The translations under genes and the position numbers were made by a program. From IMG/VR virus record IMGVR_UViG_2687453477_000003: a stretch of DNA of 20,000 bases; one strand, given 5' to 3'. The DNA comes from an uncultured virus (IMG/VR IMGVR_UViG_2687453477_000003) (lineage: Duplodnaviria > Heunggongvirae > Uroviricota > Caudoviricetes). Position 1 is the first letter of the stretch. Each line of letters starts with the position of its first letter. Below, piece after piece: positions 3,458-20,000 of this stretch. The notes beneath the pieces were generated by a model. It was given only the letters and a program-made list of their open reading frames with translations, was not told the DNA's origin and ran no database searches.

Positions 3458-4027
3458 TTATTGGGAAACTAACGACTTACATCTGGACTCCATTCGCTTT
3501 CTTGCTGTTTCAGCTTTAGAAACAATTCTTAAGAGACCCTCACCATCAATTTTGTAATATATCTTTCCAGCCTTGGGAGCTATGTAATCTTCAAGATCTT
3601 TAGTCAGTTGAAAAACGTCTAAGAAATCAGCTAAATCCTCGCAATTTCTCAATTTATCCAGGTCAACAAACTTGAACAGCTCTCTGGCATTCCTAAGCAT
3701 ATTCACCTGATTTTTTATTTGTTCTTCATAGACATATTCACGATGTTCTTCAACGACCTGAACAATGATTCTCTCTGCATAATGGGCAATTGAGACCATC
3801 TTCCTAAGCCTGTTCTCTTGCTCCTCCTCACGATCTAACTCCGACTGCCTATGCTGTGTATCAGCTATATAAAACGCATAACAGATTGCCAGCACCGAAC
3901 CGATAGCCTGAACCCAGGCTGCCGCGACAGAGTTTGTACCTCCATCAGCTGCAACCATAAATATAATCGCCACAACAACCAAAAAAAGCCCAACTCCGAC
4001 AACCTTAACTCCAGTCTTCCCATCCAT
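3458..4027 (-). CDS. AT-rich moron: membrane protein with two N-terminal TM helices and a helical soluble domain
   Basis: 189 aa, opposite strand, abruptly AT-rich; hydrophobic segments VVGVGLFLVVVAIIFMVAA and AAWVQAIGSVLAICYAFYIA. Confidence 0.8.
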   Translation of the reverse strand: MDGKTGVKVVGVGLFLVVVAIIFMVAADGGTNSVAAAWVQAIGSVLAICYAFYIADTQHRQSELDREEEQENRLRKMVSIAHYAERIIVQVVEEHREYVYEEQIKNQVNMLRNARELFKFVDLDKLRNCEDLADFLDVFQLTKDLEDYIAPKAGKIYYKIDGEGLLRIVSKAETARKRMESRCKSLVSQ

Positions 4028-10068: not shown

Positions 10069-10383
10069 TTACAACCCCTTTTGAAGTGAGCGCTTGGCAT
10101 GCGCGACTATGCCGGCCTTGAGCATTTCTGCCCAACTCTCGAAAGGAGTCTCACTACGGACATAAGCGTCCCATGGCTCGTCTGGAATCGCCCGTAGATC
10201 TTCCGCAGTTTCAACCTTATAACCGGCACCACGAGCAAACTCGTCGAAATTCGCAAACTTGCTGTTAGACGAAATAAAGCTGGGACTCATGATCTCGCTA
10301 AACGGCACTTGATGCGTGCCATCGAGTTGCTTGAGGTTTTGCTGCAGACGCTTCAGGCCAGACAGATTCATCTTGATAGGCAT
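10069..10383 (-). CDS. Moron-encoded hypothetical protein (104 aa)
   Basis: ATG 10383 with SD GGGGGA; opposite strand; lower GC. Confidence 0.75.
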   Translation of the reverse strand: MPIKMNLSGLKRLQQNLKQLDGTHQVPFSEIMSPSFISSNSKFANFDEFARGAGYKVETAEDLRAIPDEPWDAYVRSETPFESWAEMLKAGIVAHAKRSLQKGL

Positions 10384-10519
10384 AGATCCCCCTAGTTGGT
10401 CAAGTAATAGCACCGTGACTTCACCATCGAGTTTTAGGGCAATCGATCTGCATTTCAAGCTCAGTTTATTCCTCTAGGTCGTGGTCACCAGCTCCAGGCT
10501 GCGACCTGACCCTCGATAC

Positions 10520-10610: not shown

Positions 10611-11306
10611 TCAGCTAAGAAAGTCTATGAGCTTCGATCCGAGCGGAGTAGTCCGTCCAGCGAGCATCCCTTCTCTGCTCAGGGTCCCAGCAAGACTGTC
10701 GATACTTATAAGGCCGCGTTGATATAGGTCCTTCCATATAGCGTTTCGGATTTCTTCATGGCCTTTAAGTTCTGGGATCCCGAGATCAACGACGCTCGTT
10801 AACCCACCCATGTTCCAGTTCGGAATCGTGATGTCATGTTCAGCAAACCACTTAGTTGGGTTGTAGAAGAGTTTCAGAAGCTTAATGTGGGTAGGTGTGC
10901 AGACATCTACAAAGTTGAGGAAGAGCTGACGGTAGTCGTCAGGTGGACAGGTGGGTAAGGCAGAGTTTTTTACCGCATTCCGTAGCGCCTCGAGCTTCTC
11001 TTCCTCATGGTTGCGCAAGGTGATGGAGCAGACCTCAGAAACGGTGCTGATGAAGGCATCGTTTTCCTGTAGCCCATCAATGGTCACCACGCCTTTTTCC
11101 AGCAGATCGTTGATAACCTCGCCGATTTGAACCATCGCCTCCGTTCTCCGCTTATTGAGCGGGGATTCCAGCACCGAGTTGAAGACATCAGCAAGCGCTC
11201 CGCCGGCGACTGGGATCGCCCCCAAAGTCACTCGAGCCAGCCTATGAAACTTCTCTGAGTCTGGTTCGTTCGCCGGGTCAAACGCGTCAGTATCAATTTT
11301 GTCCAC
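10611..11306 (-). CDS. Moron protein resembling Abi-alpha/DUF4393-like proteins; candidate anti-phage factor
   Basis: GTG 11306 with SD GGAAGGGGG. N-terminal 'AIPVAGGALADVF', central 'EEKLEALRNAV...FLNFVD' and C-terminal winged helix 'DLYQRGLI...TTPLGSKLIDF'. ORF is secure; family is tentative. Confidence 0.6.
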   Translation of the reverse strand: MDKIDTDAFDPANEPDSEKFHRLARVTLGAIPVAGGALADVFNSVLESPLNKRRTEAMVQIGEVINDLLEKGVVTIDGLQENDAFISTVSEVCSITLRNHEEEKLEALRNAVKNSALPTCPPDDYRQLFLNFVDVCTPTHIKLLKLFYNPTKWFAEHDITIPNWNMGGLTSVVDLGIPELKGHEEIRNAIWKDLYQRGLISIDSLAGTLSREGMLAGRTTPLGSKLIDFLS

Positions 11307-11426
11307 GAATTCCCCCTTCCTTGATCCGGCCCCATGCCGGGCCATCCAACTCTAGCCCCAACGACATCACTGCGCCATCACGCATAGCGCAGTGCGTCCT
11401 CACGTTCGCGAAAAGGAACCCGCCGC

Positions 11427-13340
11427 ATGATCAAGCGCACCCTCTACCACTTCCACTTCTGCTGCGGCCTGGGCGGCGGCGCCAAGGGCTTCAACCGCTC
11501 GCGACCGCGCGTCGGCAATGTCGAAGCGCAATGGGAATGTCTCGGTGGCATCGACGTCGATGCGGGCGTATTGCGCGATTTCGCCAAACTGGCTGGCGTA
11601 CCAGGCACCCAGCTGGACCTGTTCACCCGCGACCAATACATCCGCTTCCATGGAAAGGAGCCGCCCGCCGGTTGGCGGGAGGCGACTCCGGAGGATATTC
11701 GTCGCGCCGCCGGCGGGCGCCGACCGGATGCGGTGTTCATCAGCTCCCCCTGCAAGGGCGCCTCTGGCCTCCTCTCCGAGAAGATGAGCCTGACCCCGAA
11801 GTACCAGGCGCTGAACGAGTTGACGCTGCGCTGCATCTGGCTGATGGGCGAGGCATGGGCTGATGACCCGGTGCCGCTGATCGTCTTCGAGAACGTCCCA
11901 CGCCTTGCCAGCCGCGGCCGGCACCTGCTTAACCAGATCAACAGCCTGCTCGGCGGCTTCGGCTACGCCGTGGCGGAAACCACTCACGACTGCGGCGAAC
12001 TCGGCGGCCTGGCGCAGTCCCGGAAGCGCTTCCTCCTGGTGGCACGCCATGTCGAGAAGGTGCCGCCCTTCCTGTACGAGCCTGAGAAGAAGTCGCTCCG
12101 CGCCGTCGGTGACATCCTCGGCCGCATGCCGCTGCCCGGCGATATCGAGGCTGCCGGTCCAATGCACCGCGTACCGTCCTTGCAGTGGAAGACCTGGGTG
12201 CGCCTCGCTCTGGTGCGAGCCGGCAGCGACTGGCGCAGCCTGAACGACCTGGCCGTCGAAGACGGCTACCTGCGCGATCTGATCATCGTGCCGGAGTACC
12301 ACCGGGGCGTCCTGGGCGTGAATCACTGGGGCGATTCGTGTGGCGTTGTCGCCGGCGCGAGCCGCCCGATGAACGGGCGGTTCTCAGTCGCGGATCCTCG
12401 CGCGCCGGCAAACGCCCTGCAGTACCAGCAGTACGGCGTGCGCCGCTGGACCGACACCTCGGGCGCCATCATCGGCGTCAAGTCGCCCGGCCAGGGCACG
12501 TACTCCGTCGCCGATCCCCGCGGCCAGAGTTTCGGCAAGTACCCGGTCACCGACTGGGACGGTCCGTCCGGCACCGTGATCGCGGCCAGTACTACCGGCC
12601 AGGGTGCTTTCGCAGTAGCAGATCCGCGCCCGGGCGGCGTCCGGCACAACAACGTGTTCCGCGTCGTCAGCATGGGGAGCCACGCCGGAACCATCACTGG
12701 CGGGCACTCGCCGAGCTCCGGCGGCCAGGCTGTTGCCGATCCCAGGTACCACAACTGGCACCCTGGGGCGAGCAGCCGCAAATTGCACGTCGGCGAGTGG
12801 GGAAGCGCTACCGGCACGGTCACCGGCTCCCAGCAGGTGGCCAGCGGCGCTCTGTCGATCGCTGATCCGCGCGTGCTCGATCGCACCAAGGGCGACGCCT
12901 ACCTGACCGGCGGGCACTACGGTGTCGTCGGGTTCGACCAGTCCGCCGGCGCAGTGTCGGCCAGCGCCAGACACGACAATGGCCGGTGGAGCGTTGCCGA
13001 TCCGCGCATGCCGGCCGCGAATGACCGTCTGACCTGCATCATCCGCAGCCTGGACGGCACCTGGCACAGGCCCTTCACCACCCTGGAGTTGGCCGCGCTG
13101 CAGAGCCTGGTGGACCCGGAAGAACAGTTGATCCTCGACGGCCTGAGCGACAGCGACTGGCGCGAGCGCATCGGCAACGCCGTGCCGCCAGCCGCGGCCG
13201 AGGCCATCGCCGGCGTGATGGGCACCACTCTGCTGCTGGCCGAGGCCGGCGAAACCTTCCTACTCAGCAGCACGCCGATCTGGGTACGGCAGGTCGCGGT
13301 AGGGTTGAGCGTGGCTCAACAGGAGAACGCGGAGCGCTGA
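11427..13340 (+). CDS. C5-cytosine DNA methyltransferase with repeat-expanded variable region
   Basis: Motif I FCCGLGG, IV SPCKG, VI FENVP, VIII QSRKRF, IX RPFTTLELAALQS, X IGNAVPP. Confidence 0.92.
   Translation: MIKRTLYHFHFCCGLGGGAKGFNRSRPRVGNVEAQWECLGGIDVDAGVLRDFAKLAGVPGTQLDLFTRDQYIRFHGKEPPAGWREATPEDIRRAAGGRRPDAVFISSPCKGASGLLSEKMSLTPKYQALNELTLRCIWLMGEAWADDPVPLIVFENVPRLASRGRHLLNQINSLLGGFGYAVAETTHDCGELGGLAQSRKRFLLVARHVEKVPPFLYEPEKKSLRAVGDILGRMPLPGDIEAAGPMHRVPSLQWKTWVRLALVRAGSDWRSLNDLAVEDGYLRDLIIVPEYHRGVLGVNHWGDSCGVVAGASRPMNGRFSVADPRAPANALQYQQYGVRRWTDTSGAIIGVKSPGQGTYSVADPRGQSFGKYPVTDWDGPSGTVIAASTTGQGAFAVADPRPGGVRHNNVFRVVSMGSHAGTITGGHSPSSGGQAVADPRYHNWHPGASSRKLHVGEWGSATGTVTGSQQVASGALSIADPRVLDRTKGDAYLTGGHYGVVGFDQSAGAVSASARHDNGRWSVADPRMPAANDRLTCIIRSLDGTWHRPFTTLELAALQSLVDPEEQLILDGLSDSDWRERIGNAVPPAAAEAIAGVMGTTLLLAEAGETFLLSSTPIWVRQVAVGLSVAQQENAER
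12306..13007 (+). repeat. Six intragenic repeats of about 32-45 aa, each ending (V/I)ADPR
   Basis: Six ADPR-terminated units sharing roughly 'V..W...sG.V.g.....G..sVADPR'. Confidence 0.88.
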
Positions 13341-13696: not shown

Positions 13697-14554
13697 CTAT
13701 TGCTCTTCACCGTTAGCCTCAACATCAGCGTGATCGTTCCATGTCCTCAACATCCAAGATGGCAACTGATCATGTCTTTTAACGCCAACCCTGGCATTCG
13801 AATAAGGCATGTGTGGTTCGAGGACGGTCCTGACCAATATTTGATCATTGGTAATTTGAATAGGAGCCACCAGATCTGGGGCGGCGGTAATATCCTCTCG
13901 ATCACGCAAGTAAAGCGGAACAAGATAATTCATGCTTCCAAAATACCAGTAAGGAAGCTGCAAGCTCCTATTTATTGACCATTGTATGGCACCAGAAATT
14001 GCGCACATCTGAGCAACAGGCGGAGCATCTTTTAAGAACTCAACCCTATCGGCATTGTCTTTCAGCATATGATCATGCTGCATCACAATCTCTGCCCCCT
14101 TTGGCATTTGTAGCCCAGTTGGTATCTCAGGGGCAGATGGCAGAGATGGAGCGTTGATATGGGGGCCACCTTTAATTAACTTCCATGGCGCCTTTCCTTC
14201 CTCATCTCCGGCCATGAATACAAGATACAAAGGCGTACCGTATCTAGTCTGCAAGCTACCGGCAGTGAGATAAAATTGATCTTCCCCGAAGGTAACTCTT
14301 CCCTGTTCGACACTCCAAGCAACATTCACTGCGAGATATTTCTTTAGCGCCTGAAGATTTTTCCCCCAGTTCTCACTGAGAGCATTGCTTTTAATCTCCT
14401 CCAAGACAGGCATCGGTATATATGCAAAGTCATGAAGCCGCTTCACGATTTTCTGCGTATACCCACTTCCGATATCAGCCTGCAGTTTTTCGATATTCAA
14501 CTCCCTATCTCCAATAGCGCCGTCATTGACGGTAATATCTTTTCTTGACACCAC
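13697..14554 (-). CDS. DUF3825-like protein in AT-rich moron
   Basis: Motifs 'DFAY..ALSENWG..LKKYL', 'GSLQTRYGTPLY', 'HMLKDNADR', 'YLVPLYL..PDL' and 'RTVL..PYSNAR' recall DUF3825; GTG start with SD GGAGGGG. Confidence 0.65.
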   Translation of the reverse strand: MVSRKDITVNDGAIGDRELNIEKLQADIGSGYTQKIVKRLHDFAYIPMPVLEEIKSNALSENWGKNLQALKKYLAVNVAWSVEQGRVTFGEDQFYLTAGSLQTRYGTPLYLVFMAGDEEGKAPWKLIKGGPHINAPSLPSAPEIPTGLQMPKGAEIVMQHDHMLKDNADRVEFLKDAPPVAQMCAISGAIQWSINRSLQLPYWYFGSMNYLVPLYLRDREDITAAPDLVAPIQITNDQILVRTVLEPHMPYSNARVGVKRHDQLPSWMLRTWNDHADVEANGEEQ

Positions 14555-14679: not shown

Positions 14680-15045
14680 TCAGTCATCCAGCAAGTCTTC
14701 AAGCATTTTATCAACATCTGCAGCATTGTGCCGGGCGGCAGCAAACAGCTGACGCAATGCCGGAGAATAAGATGATGTTTCGTAAACAACAACACCCTCG
14801 CGAACCACTGCGAACTTTACGTCCGAAGTCCAACTCCATTCATCTTCGTCGCGGTAATACTTCGAGCGAACCTCGTACACGGCTAATATTCTTCCCTTGT
14901 ATTCCGCCTCCAGATACACTGAAATAAAATCTTCCGTAGCCCGAGTAAGACTGTCTGGAGCTTTTGTGGAGACCCACTTAACCGCACCCTCAGAAGTTCC
15001 TCGCAGCACTAGCATCATCAGTTTTTCAATTTTATCAGGATTCAT
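14680..15045 (-). CDS. Moron hypothetical protein (121 aa), translationally coupled to the upstream gene
   Basis: ATG 15045 overlaps the stop of 15042-15509 (ATGA); alpha/beta pattern 'T..G.VKW'. Confidence 0.75.
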   Translation of the reverse strand: MNPDKIEKLMMLVLRGTSEGAVKWVSTKAPDSLTRATEDFISVYLEAEYKGRILAVYEVRSKYYRDEDEWSWTSDVKFAVVREGVVVYETSSYSPALRQLFAAARHNAADVDKMLEDLLDD

Positions 15046-15509: not shown

Positions 15510-15602
15510 ACAAACTCCCTCAACCTGGCCCCACCACACTATATCCGGAGACGCATCATCATGCCTACAGACAACAAGCAGCGAGCCAAGGAGGGCTACG
15601 CG

Positions 15603-15725
15603 ATGCGTAGAGCGTTGACCGCCCTCGGCATCATCGCAGCCCTCGGCCTGGCCGTGGTGGGGCTGGTGGAGATATTCCCGATCCTTCGCACGCTGGCGGC
15701 CTGGCAGATGGGGTGCTTCGGATGA
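15603..15725 (+). CDS. Small membrane peptide (40 aa)
   Basis: MRRALTALGIIAALGLAVVGLVEIFPILRTLAAWQMGCFG; SD AGGAGG; an in-frame upstream ATG exists at 15561. Confidence 0.6.
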   Translation: MRRALTALGIIAALGLAVVGLVEIFPILRTLAAWQMGCFG

Positions 15726-16144
15726 AGCAGAAACCAGGCATCGCCCTTCCCCGCTGGCTACTGCGGACCACAACGATGCAGATGCACAGCGTCGACGTGG
15801 TATTGGTGATGGCCCTGGTGCTCCAGCACCACGGCACGGCCGACGCTGTTCGCCGCGCCGCCGGTCAGCTTCGCGACAGAGTGTGTGCCGAGCACCGGCC
15901 CAAGATGACCGCGCTCATGCGAATGCAAGACGACGCGGCGGCGCTGCAAGTGGCGCTCAACATCGTCCAACGCGCCACCGACGCCCTGGGCATCCTGCCG
16001 GGAACGCCATTTCCGGCCGGGCCGGTACTGACTAACCGTTACCTCGAAACCCAACTTGCACCCGGTCCGTATCAATGGACCCGGGAGGTATCTCTATGCG
16101 CAACACCCAGCAGCACCAAGACGTCCCCCGCTTCATCGACTTGA
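15722..16144 (+). CDS. Hypothetical phage protein
   Basis: ATG 15722 overlaps the previous stop; GC-rich core codon usage; 3' end overlaps the excisionase. Confidence 0.65.
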   Translation: MKQKPGIALPRWLLRTTTMQMHSVDVVLVMALVLQHHGTADAVRRAAGQLRDRVCAEHRPKMTALMRMQDDAAALQVALNIVQRATDALGILPGTPFPAGPVLTNRYLETQLAPGPYQWTREVSLCATPSSTKTSPASST

Positions 16145-16329
16145 ATATGGTCAAGTTGAGAACGGGGATGGGTACCACGTTCATCTACGACCATATGAAG
16201 AAAGGGGACTTCCCCAAAGGGCGCAAGTTTGGCCGTGCCACTCGCTGGGCAGAGGTTGAAATCGACCAGTACTGCAACGGAACCTGGACGCCGCAGGCGC
16301 CAACAAACGAAGCGGGAGCCCCGGAGTGA
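16096..16329 (+). CDS. alpA: AlpA-family excisionase / recombination directionality factor
   Basis: 'FIDLNMVKLRTGMGTTFIYDHMKKGDFPKGRKFGRATRWAEVEI' matches the AlpA pattern; SD GGAGG before ATG 16096. Confidence 0.9.
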   Translation: MRNTQQHQDVPRFIDLNMVKLRTGMGTTFIYDHMKKGDFPKGRKFGRATRWAEVEIDQYCNGTWTPQAPTNEAGAPE

Positions 16330-16341
16330 TCACTCCGGGGC
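16318..16341. repeat. Perfect 24-bp palindrome at convergent stop codons
   Basis: GCCCCGGAGTGATCACTCCGGGGC equals its own reverse complement. Confidence 0.85.
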
Positions 16342-16677
16342 AGCCTGCTCCAACCGAACCAAGTAACCACGGCAGTGCTGCACGTAGCGCACTCGAGACA
16401 GTCTCCAACCATGGCCAGTTAGTGGTTCATCGAACTCAAGGCGCTTAATCACTTGGCTAACGGCGTTTGGGTTCATCATCTTCGTTGGGTCTATTCGACC
16501 CACGAACGCTAACTAGTGCTCCCCCCTCCGCAGAAACCGCCTGACTTACTTAATCGTTAGGCGCGACAGAGCCACGATCTACGGCGGCCCGTCCTCCCCG
16601 TCCCTGCGCACCTTTCCAGGCAGTTGTTTCACCCTTCCGAGTCGCCACTAACTCTGCCACCGGGTCGAAAGTCTACC
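16330..16677 (-). pseudogene. Decayed 3' remnant of a tyrosine integrase related to the intact one
   Basis: Colinear matches: TCATCATCTTCGT 16473/19025, AACCGCCTGAC 16535/19090, TTCACCCTTCCG 16628/19183. Ends ...YLVRLEQAAPE*, similar to WADFLDQRELAEG*. Confidence 0.85.
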
Positions 16678-17220
16678 TTAAGGGTTCCGCCCTTCGAACG
16701 TCTCGTAGGTCAAATCAACCATACTTTTATATCGATCTGTAACAGAATCCGAAAGACGCATATAAAGATCAATAGCTTTAGAGTTTACTACAACAATACG
16801 CCGCTCACGATCTGCCTCAGGCATTTTGTTACTAATTTCTGAGTCAAGAGTTGCCGAGTCACGCAGATCAGCTATCTTTTCTACGGCAAAATTCATAATT
16901 TTAGGCTCTGCTGTCCAATGCGTTAGCTTCCGGCATTTTCGCTCAAGCAAGGAAACTTTATGCTCAACAAAATTACATTTCAAATCAACAGAACACGCAA
17001 ATAACCGTGCAGCCAAATCTGTATTATCGTCTTCGCATCTCCCCCAAAAGTCGGAAACATCACTCACGATCTCTTGAAGCATCTTCTCTATCGCTGCAAC
17101 TATAGCATTCGCCTCAGATTGTCTAGCAAGCGATCGTGAATTATGATAAACAAAAATCCAACCAACGATTCCAACAATTACTGAAACGACCGCGGCCCAG
17201 TTAAAATCACCGCCCACCAT
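16678..17220 (-). CDS. Membrane-anchored helical protein, third gene of the kinase-STAS cassette
   Basis: 180 aa; single N-terminal TM WAAVVSVIVGIVGWIFVY; start overlaps the STAS gene by 14 bp. Confidence 0.8.
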   Translation of the reverse strand: MVGGDFNWAAVVSVIVGIVGWIFVYHNSRSLARQSEANAIVAAIEKMLQEIVSDVSDFWGRCEDDNTDLAARLFACSVDLKCNFVEHKVSLLERKCRKLTHWTAEPKIMNFAVEKIADLRDSATLDSEISNKMPEADRERRIVVVNSKAIDLYMRLSDSVTDRYKSMVDLTYETFEGRNP

Positions 17221-17563
17221 TATTTTCAGGCCTCGCCTCGCGAATGTACTTATCTATATTATTCAAGACACTTTTATAACGACTTTTATAACCGACCCGC
17301 TTCCTTACTTCTTCTGGAGTGAAGCCCTCATATTTAATTAGACCCCCAAATACCTCATCCAGAAAAGACGACCCACTCCCCAGCACCCCAGTTAAGTCAA
17401 CTTCAACGTAATCATACTCTTCTAAGGCTTTGAGCAAGAACTCCCTTCTGAATCGAACACCATTAAACTCCGGATTATCAACTTCGGAGCGACCATAAGG
17501 CATATCAGTAAAATCTTTTGCTACATCGATTATCTTAATCAAACCTTTATTCATTTCAATCAC
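17207..17563 (-). CDS. STAS-like domain protein (DUF4325-like)
   Basis: 'GVRFRREFL...VEVDLTGVLGSGSSFLDEVFGGL' signature; GTG start overlaps the kinase stop (alternative ATG at 17554). Confidence 0.82.
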   Translation of the reverse strand: MIEMNKGLIKIIDVAKDFTDMPYGRSEVDNPEFNGVRFRREFLLKALEEYDYVEVDLTGVLGSGSSFLDEVFGGLIKYEGFTPEEVRKRVGYKSRYKSVLNNIDKYIREARPENNGGR

Positions 17564-18660
17564 CCTGGGACCTTAAGCTTGATATTCCATTGAATCAAGG
17601 TTCCATGAAACTCAAACGGAAGCGGCCTAGCCTCCTCCTTCTGCCCCTTTGTTTGGTATTGATACCAACCACTACCACTATAGATCATTAGCGTTCCCAT
17701 TGGATTCGCTTCGACAAAATCTTTTGCTTCGGATAGACCTTTTCCGCGCCCGCTAGTATTGAAGCGAGACTTCCCATAGTCAACAGCGGCCTTAATACTT
17801 GCAGCATCGCGAAATGCTCTTACGGGAAATGACGGACTCTTTTTCAGCAGCTTTTTCAAGGCACTATAAGTATCTCTCATCATATCAACCATATTTGGCT
17901 TAATGGACAAGGTTTTTGGAATACCCACACCCATGTCATAAACACCTATAAAAAGCTGATCCTCAATTAGACGAACAACAATCCACCAATTCTGCAAATG
18001 AGCAGGGAGATCCAGTTCGAATTCTTTAGCATACCCATGTTGCCAAACATTCCCAACAGATTCCGTAATCGCAGCGAAAGCCAATCCGCCCTGTTCATCC
18101 TCTTTAGAACTTTCAAATATATCTTTCACATATGAAATAACAGACCGGAGCTCCGTTTGCTCTGCCCCACCCTCTTTATCCTCGGATGAAGCAGTACAGA
18201 TAGGAACCCCGGGAACCTTCGCATCCTTAAAGTTAGGACGTCGCTCTCGCATCAAGTCCCAAAAGCCTAAAATCTGAAATTTTTTTGCTATATTAAGATT
18301 ACAACAAGCAGTTGATTTAATAATTTTTGAATTTCCATGAAGCTTTTGCAACTGCTCTATATTTGCATACAAGACAAGTAGTGCTGCAACTTTTACAGCG
18401 CGCACAGATTTAAAGTCAAGAAGAACCAACCCACTAGAGCAAGCTTGTCTGATACTGTTTATAAAGGTCCAAAATTCATCATAGCCCGGACCAAAAAAAT
18501 TAAGCTCTTCCGGCGCAACAACTACAATTCGAGAGCCGATCCGTGATTGGAGTTTCAGCTTTCTTTGAGGATCATATCTACGTGGATTCCTAGCGATCAA
18601 CAATGCACGCCTAGTAGCATTCCTTTGCCGAATAAAATCAGAATCCCTTAACTTTTTCAT
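17560..18660 (-). CDS. GHKL (HATPase_c) ATPase/kinase with N-terminal STAS-like domain
   Basis: N box 'AITESVGNVWQHG', G1 'VYDMGVGIP', G2 'GRGKGL', final 'FHGTLIQW'; N-terminal 'VVAPEELNF...VLLDFKSVRAV' STAS-like strands; no HisKA domain. Confidence 0.82.
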   Translation of the reverse strand: MKKLRDSDFIRQRNATRRALLIARNPRRYDPQRKLKLQSRIGSRIVVVAPEELNFFGPGYDEFWTFINSIRQACSSGLVLLDFKSVRAVKVAALLVLYANIEQLQKLHGNSKIIKSTACCNLNIAKKFQILGFWDLMRERRPNFKDAKVPGVPICTASSEDKEGGAEQTELRSVISYVKDIFESSKEDEQGGLAFAAITESVGNVWQHGYAKEFELDLPAHLQNWWIVVRLIEDQLFIGVYDMGVGIPKTLSIKPNMVDMMRDTYSALKKLLKKSPSFPVRAFRDAASIKAAVDYGKSRFNTSGRGKGLSEAKDFVEANPMGTLMIYSGSGWYQYQTKGQKEEARPLPFEFHGTLIQWNIKLKVPG

Positions 18661-18767
18661 CGCAAACAGTCGCTCGTAGAACCAAAATACGAAAGATCAT
18701 ACATGAGCGAAGTAGAGGATTCACAGGGCAAGTCTCTTTTTTTACCGTGATGCTCACAGGTCACATG

Positions 18768-20000
18768 TCAGCCCTCAGCCAGCTCCCGCTGATCCAGAAA
18801 ATCAGCCCAGGCCTGCATCATTTCCCTTCGCTTTTCCACATGTGCAGCATGGTTATAAGCCGCCCTGGCCTTACTCGGATCCGCATGTGACAGTTGCCCC
18901 TCAATCAACGTCGTGTCGTAGCCCATTTCATGCAGCGCAGTGGAGAAAGTCCCTCGCAACCCATGACCAGTCAGCAGCCCATCGAACCCAAGGCGCTTGA
19001 TCGCCTGGTTGATGGTGTTCTCGCTCATCATCTTCGTCGGATCATTTCGACCTGCGAACGCGAACGGGTATTTTCCCGTCTTCTGCAGCAACCGCCTGAC
19101 CTCCTCAATCGCTTGCCGCGACAGCGGCACGATGTACGGAGGTACCTCTTCCCCGTCCTTGCGCACCTTGCCGCGCAATTGCTTCACCCTTCCGGGCGGG
19201 ACAGTCCATATCCCCTTTTCTAGATCGAAGTCTGCCGGCGCAGCCTTTCGAAGCTCGATCGTACGTACCGCGGTCAGAAGCATCAGACGAACGGCGATCC
19301 TTGTGATCTCGGACCCCTGGTAAGACCGCAGTCTCACAAGAAGGGCTGGAAGCTCTTCGCCATCATGCGCAAGAATCGGATTGTGCTCAGTCGGCGGCTG
19401 TTCTTTCGCCAGAATGTCCAGGTCCGAGGCAGGGTTGTCCTCTCGTAATCCGGCCGCGATCCCAACGCGGAAGATCTGGCGTAACCAACTCCGCGCCTTC
19501 TCCGCGACGTGCAGCGCTCCCCGGCGCTCGATGGCTCCGACAACCGCAGCCAGGTCACGACGGTGAATTTCGCGAAACTTCATATTCGCCAGGGCCGGGT
19601 ATAGGTCATTGTCCAATACTCTGCGCGCCTGGTTTGCGCTGCCTTTCCGGCTATCGTCCGCCCAGCGCCCCTGTTTCAACTCCAGCCACTGTTCAGCCAC
19701 GTGTCGAAACGTCTCCTCGACGCTGACCGTCTTCCGGTCCGCTCGATGCTGCCCCCGCGGATCGATACCTTGGGCCACCAACGAACGCGCCTCGTCACGG
19801 CGCTGCCGGGCATCACGCAGGCTCAACTCGGGATACGTCCCAAGCGACACTCGCTTCTGCTGGCCATTCAGCGAAAAGCGGAAGTGCCAGCTTTTGGTGC
19901 CCTTGTGAGAAACGAAGAGAGAGAGGCCGTCAATGTCGGCGAGGGTGTAGTCTTTAGCTTCTGCTTTTGCCTGGCGGACAGCAGTATCCGTGAGCGGCAT
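18768..20000 (-). CDS. int: P4-like tyrosine integrase
   Basis: Arm-binding N-terminus 'MPLTDTAVRQAK..DIDGLSLFV..LGTYPELSLRDAR'; catalytic 'AVRTIELR', 'HGLR', 'LSH', 'AYNHA'. Confidence 0.96.
   Translation of the reverse strand: MPLTDTAVRQAKAEAKDYTLADIDGLSLFVSHKGTKSWHFRFSLNGQQKRVSLGTYPELSLRDARQRRDEARSLVAQGIDPRGQHRADRKTVSVEETFRHVAEQWLELKQGRWADDSRKGSANQARRVLDNDLYPALANMKFREIHRRDLAAVVGAIERRGALHVAEKARSWLRQIFRVGIAAGLREDNPASDLDILAKEQPPTEHNPILAHDGEELPALLVRLRSYQGSEITRIAVRLMLLTAVRTIELRKAAPADFDLEKGIWTVPPGRVKQLRGKVRKDGEEVPPYIVPLSRQAIEEVRRLLQKTGKYPFAFAGRNDPTKMMSENTINQAIKRLGFDGLLTGHGLRGTFSTALHEMGYDTTLIEGQLSHADPSKARAAYNHAAHVEKRREMMQAWADFLDQRELAEG

What the first reader, a model, noticed from the sequence alone, without database searches (positions are those of the whole stretch)
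16678..18660. Three-gene STAS-GHKL kinase / STAS / membrane-protein cassette: candidate partner-switch anti-phage system
Seen: an AT-rich, overlapping three-gene operon directly downstream of the integrase. Gene 1 has GHKL N/G1/G2 boxes but no His-phosphotransfer domain, and its N-terminal STAS-like part lacks the acceptor Ser ('DFKSVRAVKVAAL'). Gene 2 is a stand-alone STAS-like protein with 'DLTGVLGSGSSFL'. Gene 3 is a single-TM helical protein. Established: SpoIIAB/RsbW-type GHKL kinases phosphorylate a Ser in the DSSG loop of SpoIIAA/RsbV STAS proteins in partner switching. Inference: the cassette contains no sigma factor or phosphatase, so the switch may instead control the membrane protein as an effector, for example in abortive infection or superinfection exclusion. 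I cannot match it to a named system from memory, but cannot exclude that one exists.
Basis: partly seen in the sequence, partly recalled or inferred. Interest (0 to 1): 0.85.

Follow-up and report, generated by a model that had tools for sequence, protein, structure and literature searches.

The report
Prophage kinase switch with membrane effector
A bacterial virus carries three extra genes that look like a recently described phosphorylation-triggered toxin switch, but with an unknown membrane protein in place of the usual RNA-cutting toxin, so it is probably an untested way for infected bacteria to block rival viruses.

Summary
An F116-like Pseudomonas phage carries a 42%-GC three-gene insertion just after its integrase: a STAS+SpoIIAB-type GHKL kinase, a stand-alone DUF4325 STAS protein, and a one-TM four-helix-bundle protein of no known family. 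The trio is a conserved unit. Gene 2 followed the kinase in 57 of 57 readable loci and a gene-3 homologue in 56 of 57. Many loci sit at prophage cargo sites, including the P2 gpA-portal defence hotspot. The kinase and STAS are distant homologues of VapK/VapS in the anti-phage toxin-antitoxin system VapKSC (EMBO J 2026). This cassette has no PIN toxin and lacks VapK's ssDNA-binding aromatic. Rousset 2022 listed the same arrangement in supplementary hotspot tables, unnamed and not among the tested systems I saw. Best reading (0.55): phosphorylation of the STAS antitoxin frees a membrane-anchored effector that aborts superinfection. Binding, toxicity and defence are all inferred, not shown. Side finding: phage phi297 matches this locus minus the cassette, apparently deleted between the integrase and a decayed integrase repeat. 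Verdict: new variant of a known kind.

The parts
17560..18660 (-). Gene 1, 366 aa: basic N-terminal helix, acceptor-less STAS domain (about 38-141) and SpoIIAB/RsbW-type GHKL kinase (about 149-365); distant VapK homologue
17207..17554 (-). Gene 2, 115 aa (alternative GTG start at 17563): stand-alone DUF4325 STAS protein. S62 lies in register with VapS S48; S63 is invariant in the family
16678..17220 (-). Gene 3, 180 aa: N-terminal TM helix running into a four-helix bundle predicted to be cytoplasmic; no known family; candidate effector
18768..20000 (-). Tyrosine integrase, 96% identical to the F116 integrase gene except the last 120 nt or so (about 72%)
16330..16639 (-). Decayed second copy of an integrase 3' end (about 75% identical to 18934-19194; internal stops). 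Forms a direct repeat that brackets the cassette
16473..16485 (.). 13-nt stretch shared with 19025-19037: the apparent crossover that yields phage phi297's cassette-less locus
16096..16329 (+). AlpA-family excisionase/regulator, convergent with the cassette; marks the far boundary

Best explanation
This is a prophage-borne defence cassette that works like VapKSC with a different effector. In the lysogen, unphosphorylated gene-2 STAS binds the cytoplasmic four-helix bundle of the membrane-anchored gene-3 protein and keeps it inactive. A cue from an incoming phage binds the cleft between the STAS and GHKL domains of gene 1 and turns the kinase on. The kinase phosphorylates gene 2 (S62 or S63), gene 3 is released, and it oligomerises in or perturbs the inner membrane. 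The cell arrests or dies, aborting the infection. Shown here: folds, catalytic-motif conservation, homology to VapK/VapS, fixed three-gene linkage, prophage-hotspot placement and predicted topology. Inferred: phosphorylation, gene 2-gene 3 binding, toxicity, the trigger and protection.
For: The kinase aligns with VapK-like proteins from PIN-bearing loci over 259 columns (hhalign 95%, E 3.5e-8). The STAS aligns with VapS-like proteins (86%, E 4.8e-6) and both are DUF4325. Gene order is kinase-STAS-effector, as in vapKSC, where VapS inhibits VapC, S48E releases it and the operon gives about 2-log protection (PMC13373217). Linkage: gene 2 in 57 of 57 and gene 3 in 56 of 57 readable loci; 29 of 31 in a DUF4325-first survey, two of them seed loci. 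ATP-binding residues are invariant in 38 of 38 kinases and S63 in 40 of 40 STAS proteins. Gene 3 has few conserved residues, so it is not an obvious enzyme. It has more K/R after the TM than before in 72 of 81 homologues (mean 3.6 vs 0.75), which puts the bundle in the cytoplasm, where the STAS can reach it. Six of 22 viral loci lie between P2 gpA and portal, the published defence hotspot. Rousset's tables list the arrangement in the P4 and P2 hotspots. The cassette is accessory cargo in F116-like phages.
Against: There is no experiment and no complex model. Gene 3 matches no toxin family, only generic helical bundles. VapK's ssDNA-stacking F54 aligns with A88, a variable column, so the trigger is unknown. 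The VapS-register Ser (S62) is Ser in only 20 of 40 homologues; it is Arg in 13, Pro in 6 and Val in 1. Only 1 of 20 genome loci had a clear PADLOC defence system (Septu) within 5 kb. Seven of 20 genome loci showed no phage, integrase or IS gene among neighbours of 150 aa or more.
Confidence: 0.55

Rival explanations
1. The cassette is anti-phage but wired differently. Gene 3 is a membrane sensor/anchor or a superinfection-exclusion protein that blocks DNA entry without killing. The switch activates it (STAS binding turns it on), or the kinase itself is the output.
For: The gene 3 bundle resembles chemoreceptor and sensor four-helix ligand-binding domains among its generic hits. 14 of 81 homologues add a C-terminal TM. 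The ssDNA aromatic is missing. P. aeruginosa SiaB-SiaC appears among the kinase's fold hits (6kko, Z 9.9); in that system the unphosphorylated STAS-like protein activates its target (recalled).
Against: The positive-inside bias puts the bundle in the cytoplasm, unlike periplasmic sensor domains. In both characterised relatives, phosphorylation releases an inhibition.
Confidence: 0.2
2. It is a stress-responsive or addiction-type toxin-antitoxin module that stabilises the prophage or imposes dormancy after DNA damage. Any anti-phage effect is incidental.
For: It lies between integrase and excisionase, and a cassette-less derivative exists (phi297). Some copies are on plasmids beside other toxin-antitoxin loci. 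The VapKSC authors note that the line between defence and stress response is fuzzy.
Against: It recurs at the P2 gpA-portal and P4 hotspots, which are rich in validated defences. An integrated prophage gains little from addiction (inference).
Confidence: 0.13
3. It is a signalling cassette for lysogenic conversion. The kinase or STAS cross-talks with host partner switches or sigma factors (biofilm, motility, envelope stress), and gene 3 localises the complex.
For: The folds are those of SpoIIAB/SpoIIAA, RsbW/RsbV and SiaB/SiaC. Seven of 20 genome loci sit among housekeeping genes.
Against: No sigma factor or PP2C phosphatase was seen among 213 neighbours. The same trio occurs from Pseudomonas to Haemophilus, Shewanella and Yersinia, with a similar arrangement in Leptospira, which fits a host-specific target poorly.
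Confidence: 0.08

Closest known systems
VapKSC (Chambers et al. 2026, EMBO J, PMC13373217)
   Same: Three-gene operon: STAS+GHKL kinase without HTH, stand-alone STAS with a Ser in the same register, then the effector. The kinase and STAS profiles align with VapK-like and VapS-like proteins.
   Different: The third gene is a TM plus four-helix-bundle protein, not a PIN RNase. VapK F54 corresponds to A88. The invariant Ser is S63, one residue after the VapS-register S62. The three VapK-like kinases form their own clade (FastTree support 1.0, midpoint root). The authors kept only loci with vapC.
CapK/CapS (same paper)
   Same: STAS-GHKL kinase plus STAS substrate, linked to immunity.
   Different: No HTH on the kinase, no wHTH on the STAS (115 aa), and no downstream immune operon to repress.
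'HATPase_c | DUF4325, 1 TM in protein 3' hotspot entries in Rousset et al. 2022 (PMC9122126; Table S1B system 69, Table S5B systems 61 and 19)
   Same: Same arrangement. By eye, system 69 proteins 2 and 3 are nearly identical to those of my locus L017, and system 61 protein 2 to L042.
   Different: Listed only as E. coli hotspot content (9, 68 and 155 occurrences). Not named, not interpreted, and not among the 26 cloned systems I saw in Tables S2A/B.
SpoIIAB/SpoIIAA, RsbW/RsbV and SiaB/SiaC partner switches
   Same: GHKL Ser kinase and STAS folds.
   Different: No sigma factor or PP2C phosphatase in the locus; the kinase carries its own acceptor-less STAS domain; the cassette is mobile prophage cargo.

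Membership tests
VapKSC | Kinase with STAS + GHKL domains and no HTH | tested here: met
   AF2 model and VIA-align; hhalign to VapK-like profile 95%
VapKSC | Stand-alone STAS protein with a conserved Ser/Thr at the start of helix 2 | tested here: met
   DUF4325. S62 is in register with VapS S48, read from the paper's model file. S63 is 40 of 40 and S62 is 20 of 40.
VapKSC | Third gene is a VapC/PIN nuclease | tested here: not met
   No PIN hit in 38 gene-3 members; all-helical TM protein. True PIN third genes were recovered at L073, L119 and L141 as a positive control.
VapKSC | ssDNA-stacking aromatic (VapK F54 / CapK W68) | tested here: not met
   By-eye register puts F54 on A88. That column has no aromatic among its six commonest residues (34 of 38 sequences). 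Two of my three VapK-like proteins also lack an aromatic there, so the feature is not strict.
VapKSC | STAS binds and inhibits the effector until phosphorylated; operon protects against phage | not testable with these tools
   Needs toxicity, pull-down and plaque assays
CapK/CapS | HTH-STAS-GHKL kinase plus STAS-wHTH repressor upstream of an immune operon | tested here: not met
   No HTH family on gene 1 or gene 2; gene 2 is 115 aa; no further co-oriented operon after gene 3
SpoIIAB/RsbW-type partner switch | GHKL kinase without DHp domain, intact N/G1/G2 boxes, plus STAS acceptor | tested here: met
SpoIIAB/RsbW-type partner switch | Cognate sigma factor and PP2C phosphatase in the locus | tested here: not met
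   None among 213 neighbours of 150 aa or more in 42 loci at E <= 1e-5, best 5 families shown per protein. One tyrosine-phosphatase-family gene lies on the opposite strand in L006.
Rousset 2022 HATPase_c|DUF4325|1TM hotspot entry | HATPase + DUF4325 + one-TM protein in a P2/P4-type hotspot | tested here: met
   Same family by eye via L017 and L042; homologues between gpA and portal in 6 of 22 viral loci

The most novel reading that the evidence does not exclude
This is a third and, in Gammaproteobacteria, commoner branch of the CapK/VapK module. A serine-phosphorylation switch gates a new membrane-anchored four-helix-bundle executioner. The kinase has lost ssDNA sensing and instead reads a cue specific to foreign phages, which lets an inducible prophage carry it without killing its own lytic cycle.
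Probability: 0.35. Interest if true: 0.76.

Novelty: new variant of a known kind. Interest (0 to 1): 0.58.

Why it matters
VapKSC and CapKS were described only in 2026, as ssDNA-activated switches. This cassette suggests the module also drives a non-enzymatic membrane effector. It appears more frequent than vapKSC in the genomes sampled here: 16 against 1 of 30 Pseudomonas loci, and 14 against 1 of 21 loci from the Enterobacterales-level sample, one seed locus counted in each. If confirmed, it would give a function to a large unannotated family (3396 clusters at 50% identity match the kinase profile at E <= 0.001). It would add a candidate immune effector fold and an entry missing from PADLOC. 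It also offers a near-natural plus/minus pair (this phage versus phi297) for testing in P. aeruginosa.

Tried and rejected
PADLOC and NCBIfam gave no meaningful hit for any of the three genes. PDB sequence searches found nothing significant. The weak haemagglutinin and Vpu hits for gene 3 are helix or TM noise. Foldseek and VIA-align for gene 3 returned only generic four-helix bundles; this neither names nor excludes a family. The ESM Atlas named only KilB, at 0.89 with 139 shared features, a lead below threshold. A single-protein genome scan found nothing; the alignment scan worked. The window's assembly is not held, and the nearest record did not match. No complex model could be made, so STAS-gene 3 binding is open. 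The promoter/terminator scan found nothing above shuffle level and no consensus promoter in the 107-bp gap. RNA data: 19 RNA runs from 7 studies hold the cassette, and contigs in 4 of 4 laid runs cover it. The runs were chosen for holding it and contigs may be DNA, so this is not used as proof of transcription; missing cover of other prophage genes proves nothing. Pairwise identities of the three genes correlate (Spearman 0.41-0.47, 60 loci), which shared ancestry alone explains; not used. 'Variable third gene' was rejected for this clade. 'Host flank rather than phage' was rejected: the att-like tRNA piece lies upstream of the integrase in L023, so the cassette is inside the prophage. Literature searches for a named, tested version found only the CapK/VapKSC paper. 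DefensePredictor's supplements and all bioRxiv supplements were not seen and could list this system.

Full report
SETTING. The window is the early and immunity region of an F116-like (Hollowayvirus) Pseudomonas aeruginosa temperate phage. A 3.6-kb query over 16400-20000 matched 27 phage records, all Pseudomonas phages, and none over 80% of its length. The 20 rows shown match only the integrase and a short repeat, about 1.2 kb. In phage CF24a the AlpA gene abuts the integrase end, so the three genes are an insertion. In a near-identical prophage (L023, 99.4% over 15577-20000) a tRNA-like piece, below Rfam's gathering score, lies upstream of the integrase. The cassette is therefore inside the prophage.

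OBSERVATION. The three ORFs, the low GC (41.9% against 63.9%) and both quoted motifs are real. Gene 1 folds confidently (pLDDT 85.7). Residues 38-141 match STAS domains (SpoIIAA 1tid_B Z 8.3) and 149-365 match SpoIIAB (Z 12.2, rmsd 3.6, 139 aligned) and RsbW (Z 11.0). E200, N204, H208, D242, G244, G306 and G308 are invariant in 38 of 38 aligned homologues. Naming these the N, G1 and G2 boxes is from my own knowledge. Its STAS has Val at the acceptor position. Gene 2 is DUF4325. Gene 3 is a long first helix (8-60) that begins with a hydrophobic segment, followed by three more bundle helices. It has no family in Pfam, NCBIfam or PADLOC and only an unknown-function PHROG.

A FIXED TRIO. The kinase alignment retrieved 20 genome loci and 40 viral loci. 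Three were unreadable downstream (two at contig ends, one with a broken kinase). In the other 57, the next gene was a gene-2 homologue in 57 and the third a gene-3 homologue in 56; the last joined in a later iteration. These loci are redundant (40 clusters at 90% identity, the window included). To reduce query bias I searched 400-401 genomes each of a Pseudomonas genus sample, a class sample and an order sample with Pfam DUF4325. This gave 30, 59 and 21 positive genomes. Of 81 loci fetched I dropped one from an unpublished genome. 31 of 80 had a kinase of this family followed by a stand-alone STAS, two of them my own seed loci. In 29 of those 31 the third gene joined the gene-3 profile at E < 1e-3; the best reversed decoy scored E 0.28. 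Three of the 80 that I inspected were vapKSC-like, with a PIN third gene (L073, L119, L141). Most class-sample loci were longer fused proteins (one checked: HTH-GHKL-STAS). Only the top 30 class matches were fetched.

TOPOLOGY OF GENE 3. Among 81 distinct homologues, 62 have an N-terminal window of hydropathy 1.6 or more and 14 have a second C-terminal TM. K/R residues are denser after the first TM than before it in 72, against 6 the other way and 3 equal. By the positive-inside rule (recalled) the bundle is cytoplasmic. The best-conserved positions are G20, W21, R/Q34 and E36 near the membrane; no catalytic-looking cluster stands out.

CONTEXT. Among 20 genome loci, 12 had phage or integrase genes among neighbours of 150 aa or more, one an IS, and seven neither. 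PADLOC found one clear system, Septu in L017. Among 22 viral loci scanned, six lie between P2 gpA and portal, five directly after an integrase (two are the window's own type) and three shortly after a repressor gene. No sigma-factor or PP2C family was seen among the 213 proteins. Plasmid and phage records show the same three-ORF layout in Vibrio, Leptospira, Pasteurella, Novosphingobium and Marinobacter phage AS1. In Acinetobacter the kinase is cut by an IS. One of the eight records viewed had the STAS gene without a kinase.

WHAT IS KNOWN. Chambers et al. 2026 (PMC13373217; I read the abstract, introduction, results, discussion, bioinformatics methods, part 1 of 3 of Dataset EV3 and passages of a model file) describe two systems. 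In CapK/CapS an ssDNA-activated kinase phosphorylates a STAS-wHTH repressor. In VapKSC, VapS inhibits a PIN toxin until S48 is phosphorylated; the operon gave about 2-log protection against one phage, lost in the D28A, S48A and F54A mutants. They kept only loci with vapC, and 'transmembrane' did not occur in the 13 of 14 supplements searched. My VapK-like and VapS-like profiles, built from PIN-bearing loci, align with genes 1 and 2 (95% and 86%). A 2017 PIN classification also notes a VapC group coupled to DUF4325 genes (PMC5499597, one passage). By eye, VapS S48 falls on S62 and VapK F54 on A88. S62 is Ser in 20 of 40 homologues, while S63 is Ser in 40 of 40. In two homologues with a shorter loop the invariant Ser falls in the canonical register, so S63 is the better family-wide acceptor candidate. 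Rousset et al. 2022 (PMC9122126; passages, one results section and supplementary table rows) list 'HATPase_c | DUF4325' with 'one TM in protein 3' in the P4 hotspot (system 69, 9 occurrences) and the P2 hotspot (systems 19 and 61; 155 and 68). System 69 is nearly identical by eye to L017. None of the 26 cloned systems I saw is this one, and neither term occurs in that file. PMC13586616 (passages, one supplement), PMC13092281, bioRxiv 2025.09.30.679545 and PMC7159879 (passages only) did not describe it. Eight literature searches found no named or tested version. Unseen supplements and subscription papers may hold one.

MECHANISM. The most likely reading (0.55) carries VapKSC logic over: the STAS is the antitoxin, the kinase is the sensor, and the membrane-anchored bundle is the executioner of abortive infection. 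Every biochemical step is inferred. The trigger is the least certain. The ssDNA-stacking aromatic is absent, though two of my three VapK-like proteins lack it too. A prophage induced by DNA damage would be harmed by a generic ssDNA-triggered killer (inference), which favours a foreign-phage cue. F56 is aromatic in 38 of 38 kinases and is a candidate replacement. The rivals are different wiring or superinfection exclusion (0.2), an addiction or stress module (0.13) and host signalling (0.08).

HOW IT MOVES. Beyond gene 3 lies a decayed copy of an integrase 3' end (16330-16639; about 75% to 18934-19194), ending like F116's integrase, while the working integrase has a different last 120 nt or so. 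Phage phi297 is identical to the window over 16071-16485 (415 of 415) and 19025-20000 (976 of 976), joined within a shared 13-nt stretch. The simplest account is that the cassette entered with a duplication of the integrase end, and phi297 lost it by recombination between the repeats. The direction is inferred.

EXPRESSION. Contigs of RNA runs from four studies cover the cassette, and one contig bridges parts of all three genes. The runs were selected for holding it, and contigs cannot prove transcription.

VERDICT. The cassette is real, conserved and probably defensive. It is not a member of VapKSC, because the defining PIN toxin is absent, but it likely works like it. New variant of a known kind; interest 0.58.

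Noticed in passing
window 16330-16639 and 18934-19194; L152 (phi297) 1-1378: A decayed integrase-end repeat brackets the cassette. phi297 equals this locus with 16486-19037 removed and carries a shorter, chimeric integrase end (372 aa), which may affect its integration.
   Followed up: yes
window 13697-14554, 14680-15042 and 15042-about 15506 (- strand): A second low-GC block of three minus-strand ORFs: a DUF3825 protein (E 3.9e-10), an unknown 120-aa protein and an ORF with an N-terminal hydrophobic stretch. It replaces what other F116-like phages carry here (L023, L024 and CF24a diverge at 15577). Possible second defence cargo.
   Followed up: partly
window 10611-11345 (+), 10069-10458 (+), 3458-4027 (-): Further lower-GC accessory ORFs with only unknown-function PHROG hits. 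3458-4027 has N-terminal TM segments and runs against the early genes, like a moron.
   Followed up: partly
L093 1444-2379; L097 1429-2775; L098 409-1758: Natural fusions of the kinase and the DUF4325 STAS in one ORF; L093 is followed by a gene-3-like TM protein.
   Followed up: partly
L102-L134, many loci (e.g. L104 685-1701): A common single-gene form of about 345 aa, HTH-GHKL-DUF4325, makes up most top DUF4325 hits in the class sample; not the CapK architecture (Pfam checked for L104 only).
   Followed up: no
L078, L080, L092, L086-L089: Other DUF4325 arrangements without a gene-3 homologue. L092 has a 330-aa kinase-like ORF and a short STAS, resembling Rousset Table S5B system 112.
   Followed up: no
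L052 3436-5350; L011 6261-6805; L065 1291-3800: Damaged copies: a broken kinase with gene 3 retained (L052), a split gene 3 (L011), and an IS3-truncated kinase between two IS copies (L065).
   Followed up: no
L017 675-2704: A Septu (PtuAB) system sits just upstream of the integrase that precedes the cassette.
   Followed up: no
window 11427-13340 (+): A large ORF (637 aa) with DNA cytosine-methyltransferase-like motifs by eye, as in other F116-like phages (recalled; not scanned).
   Followed up: no
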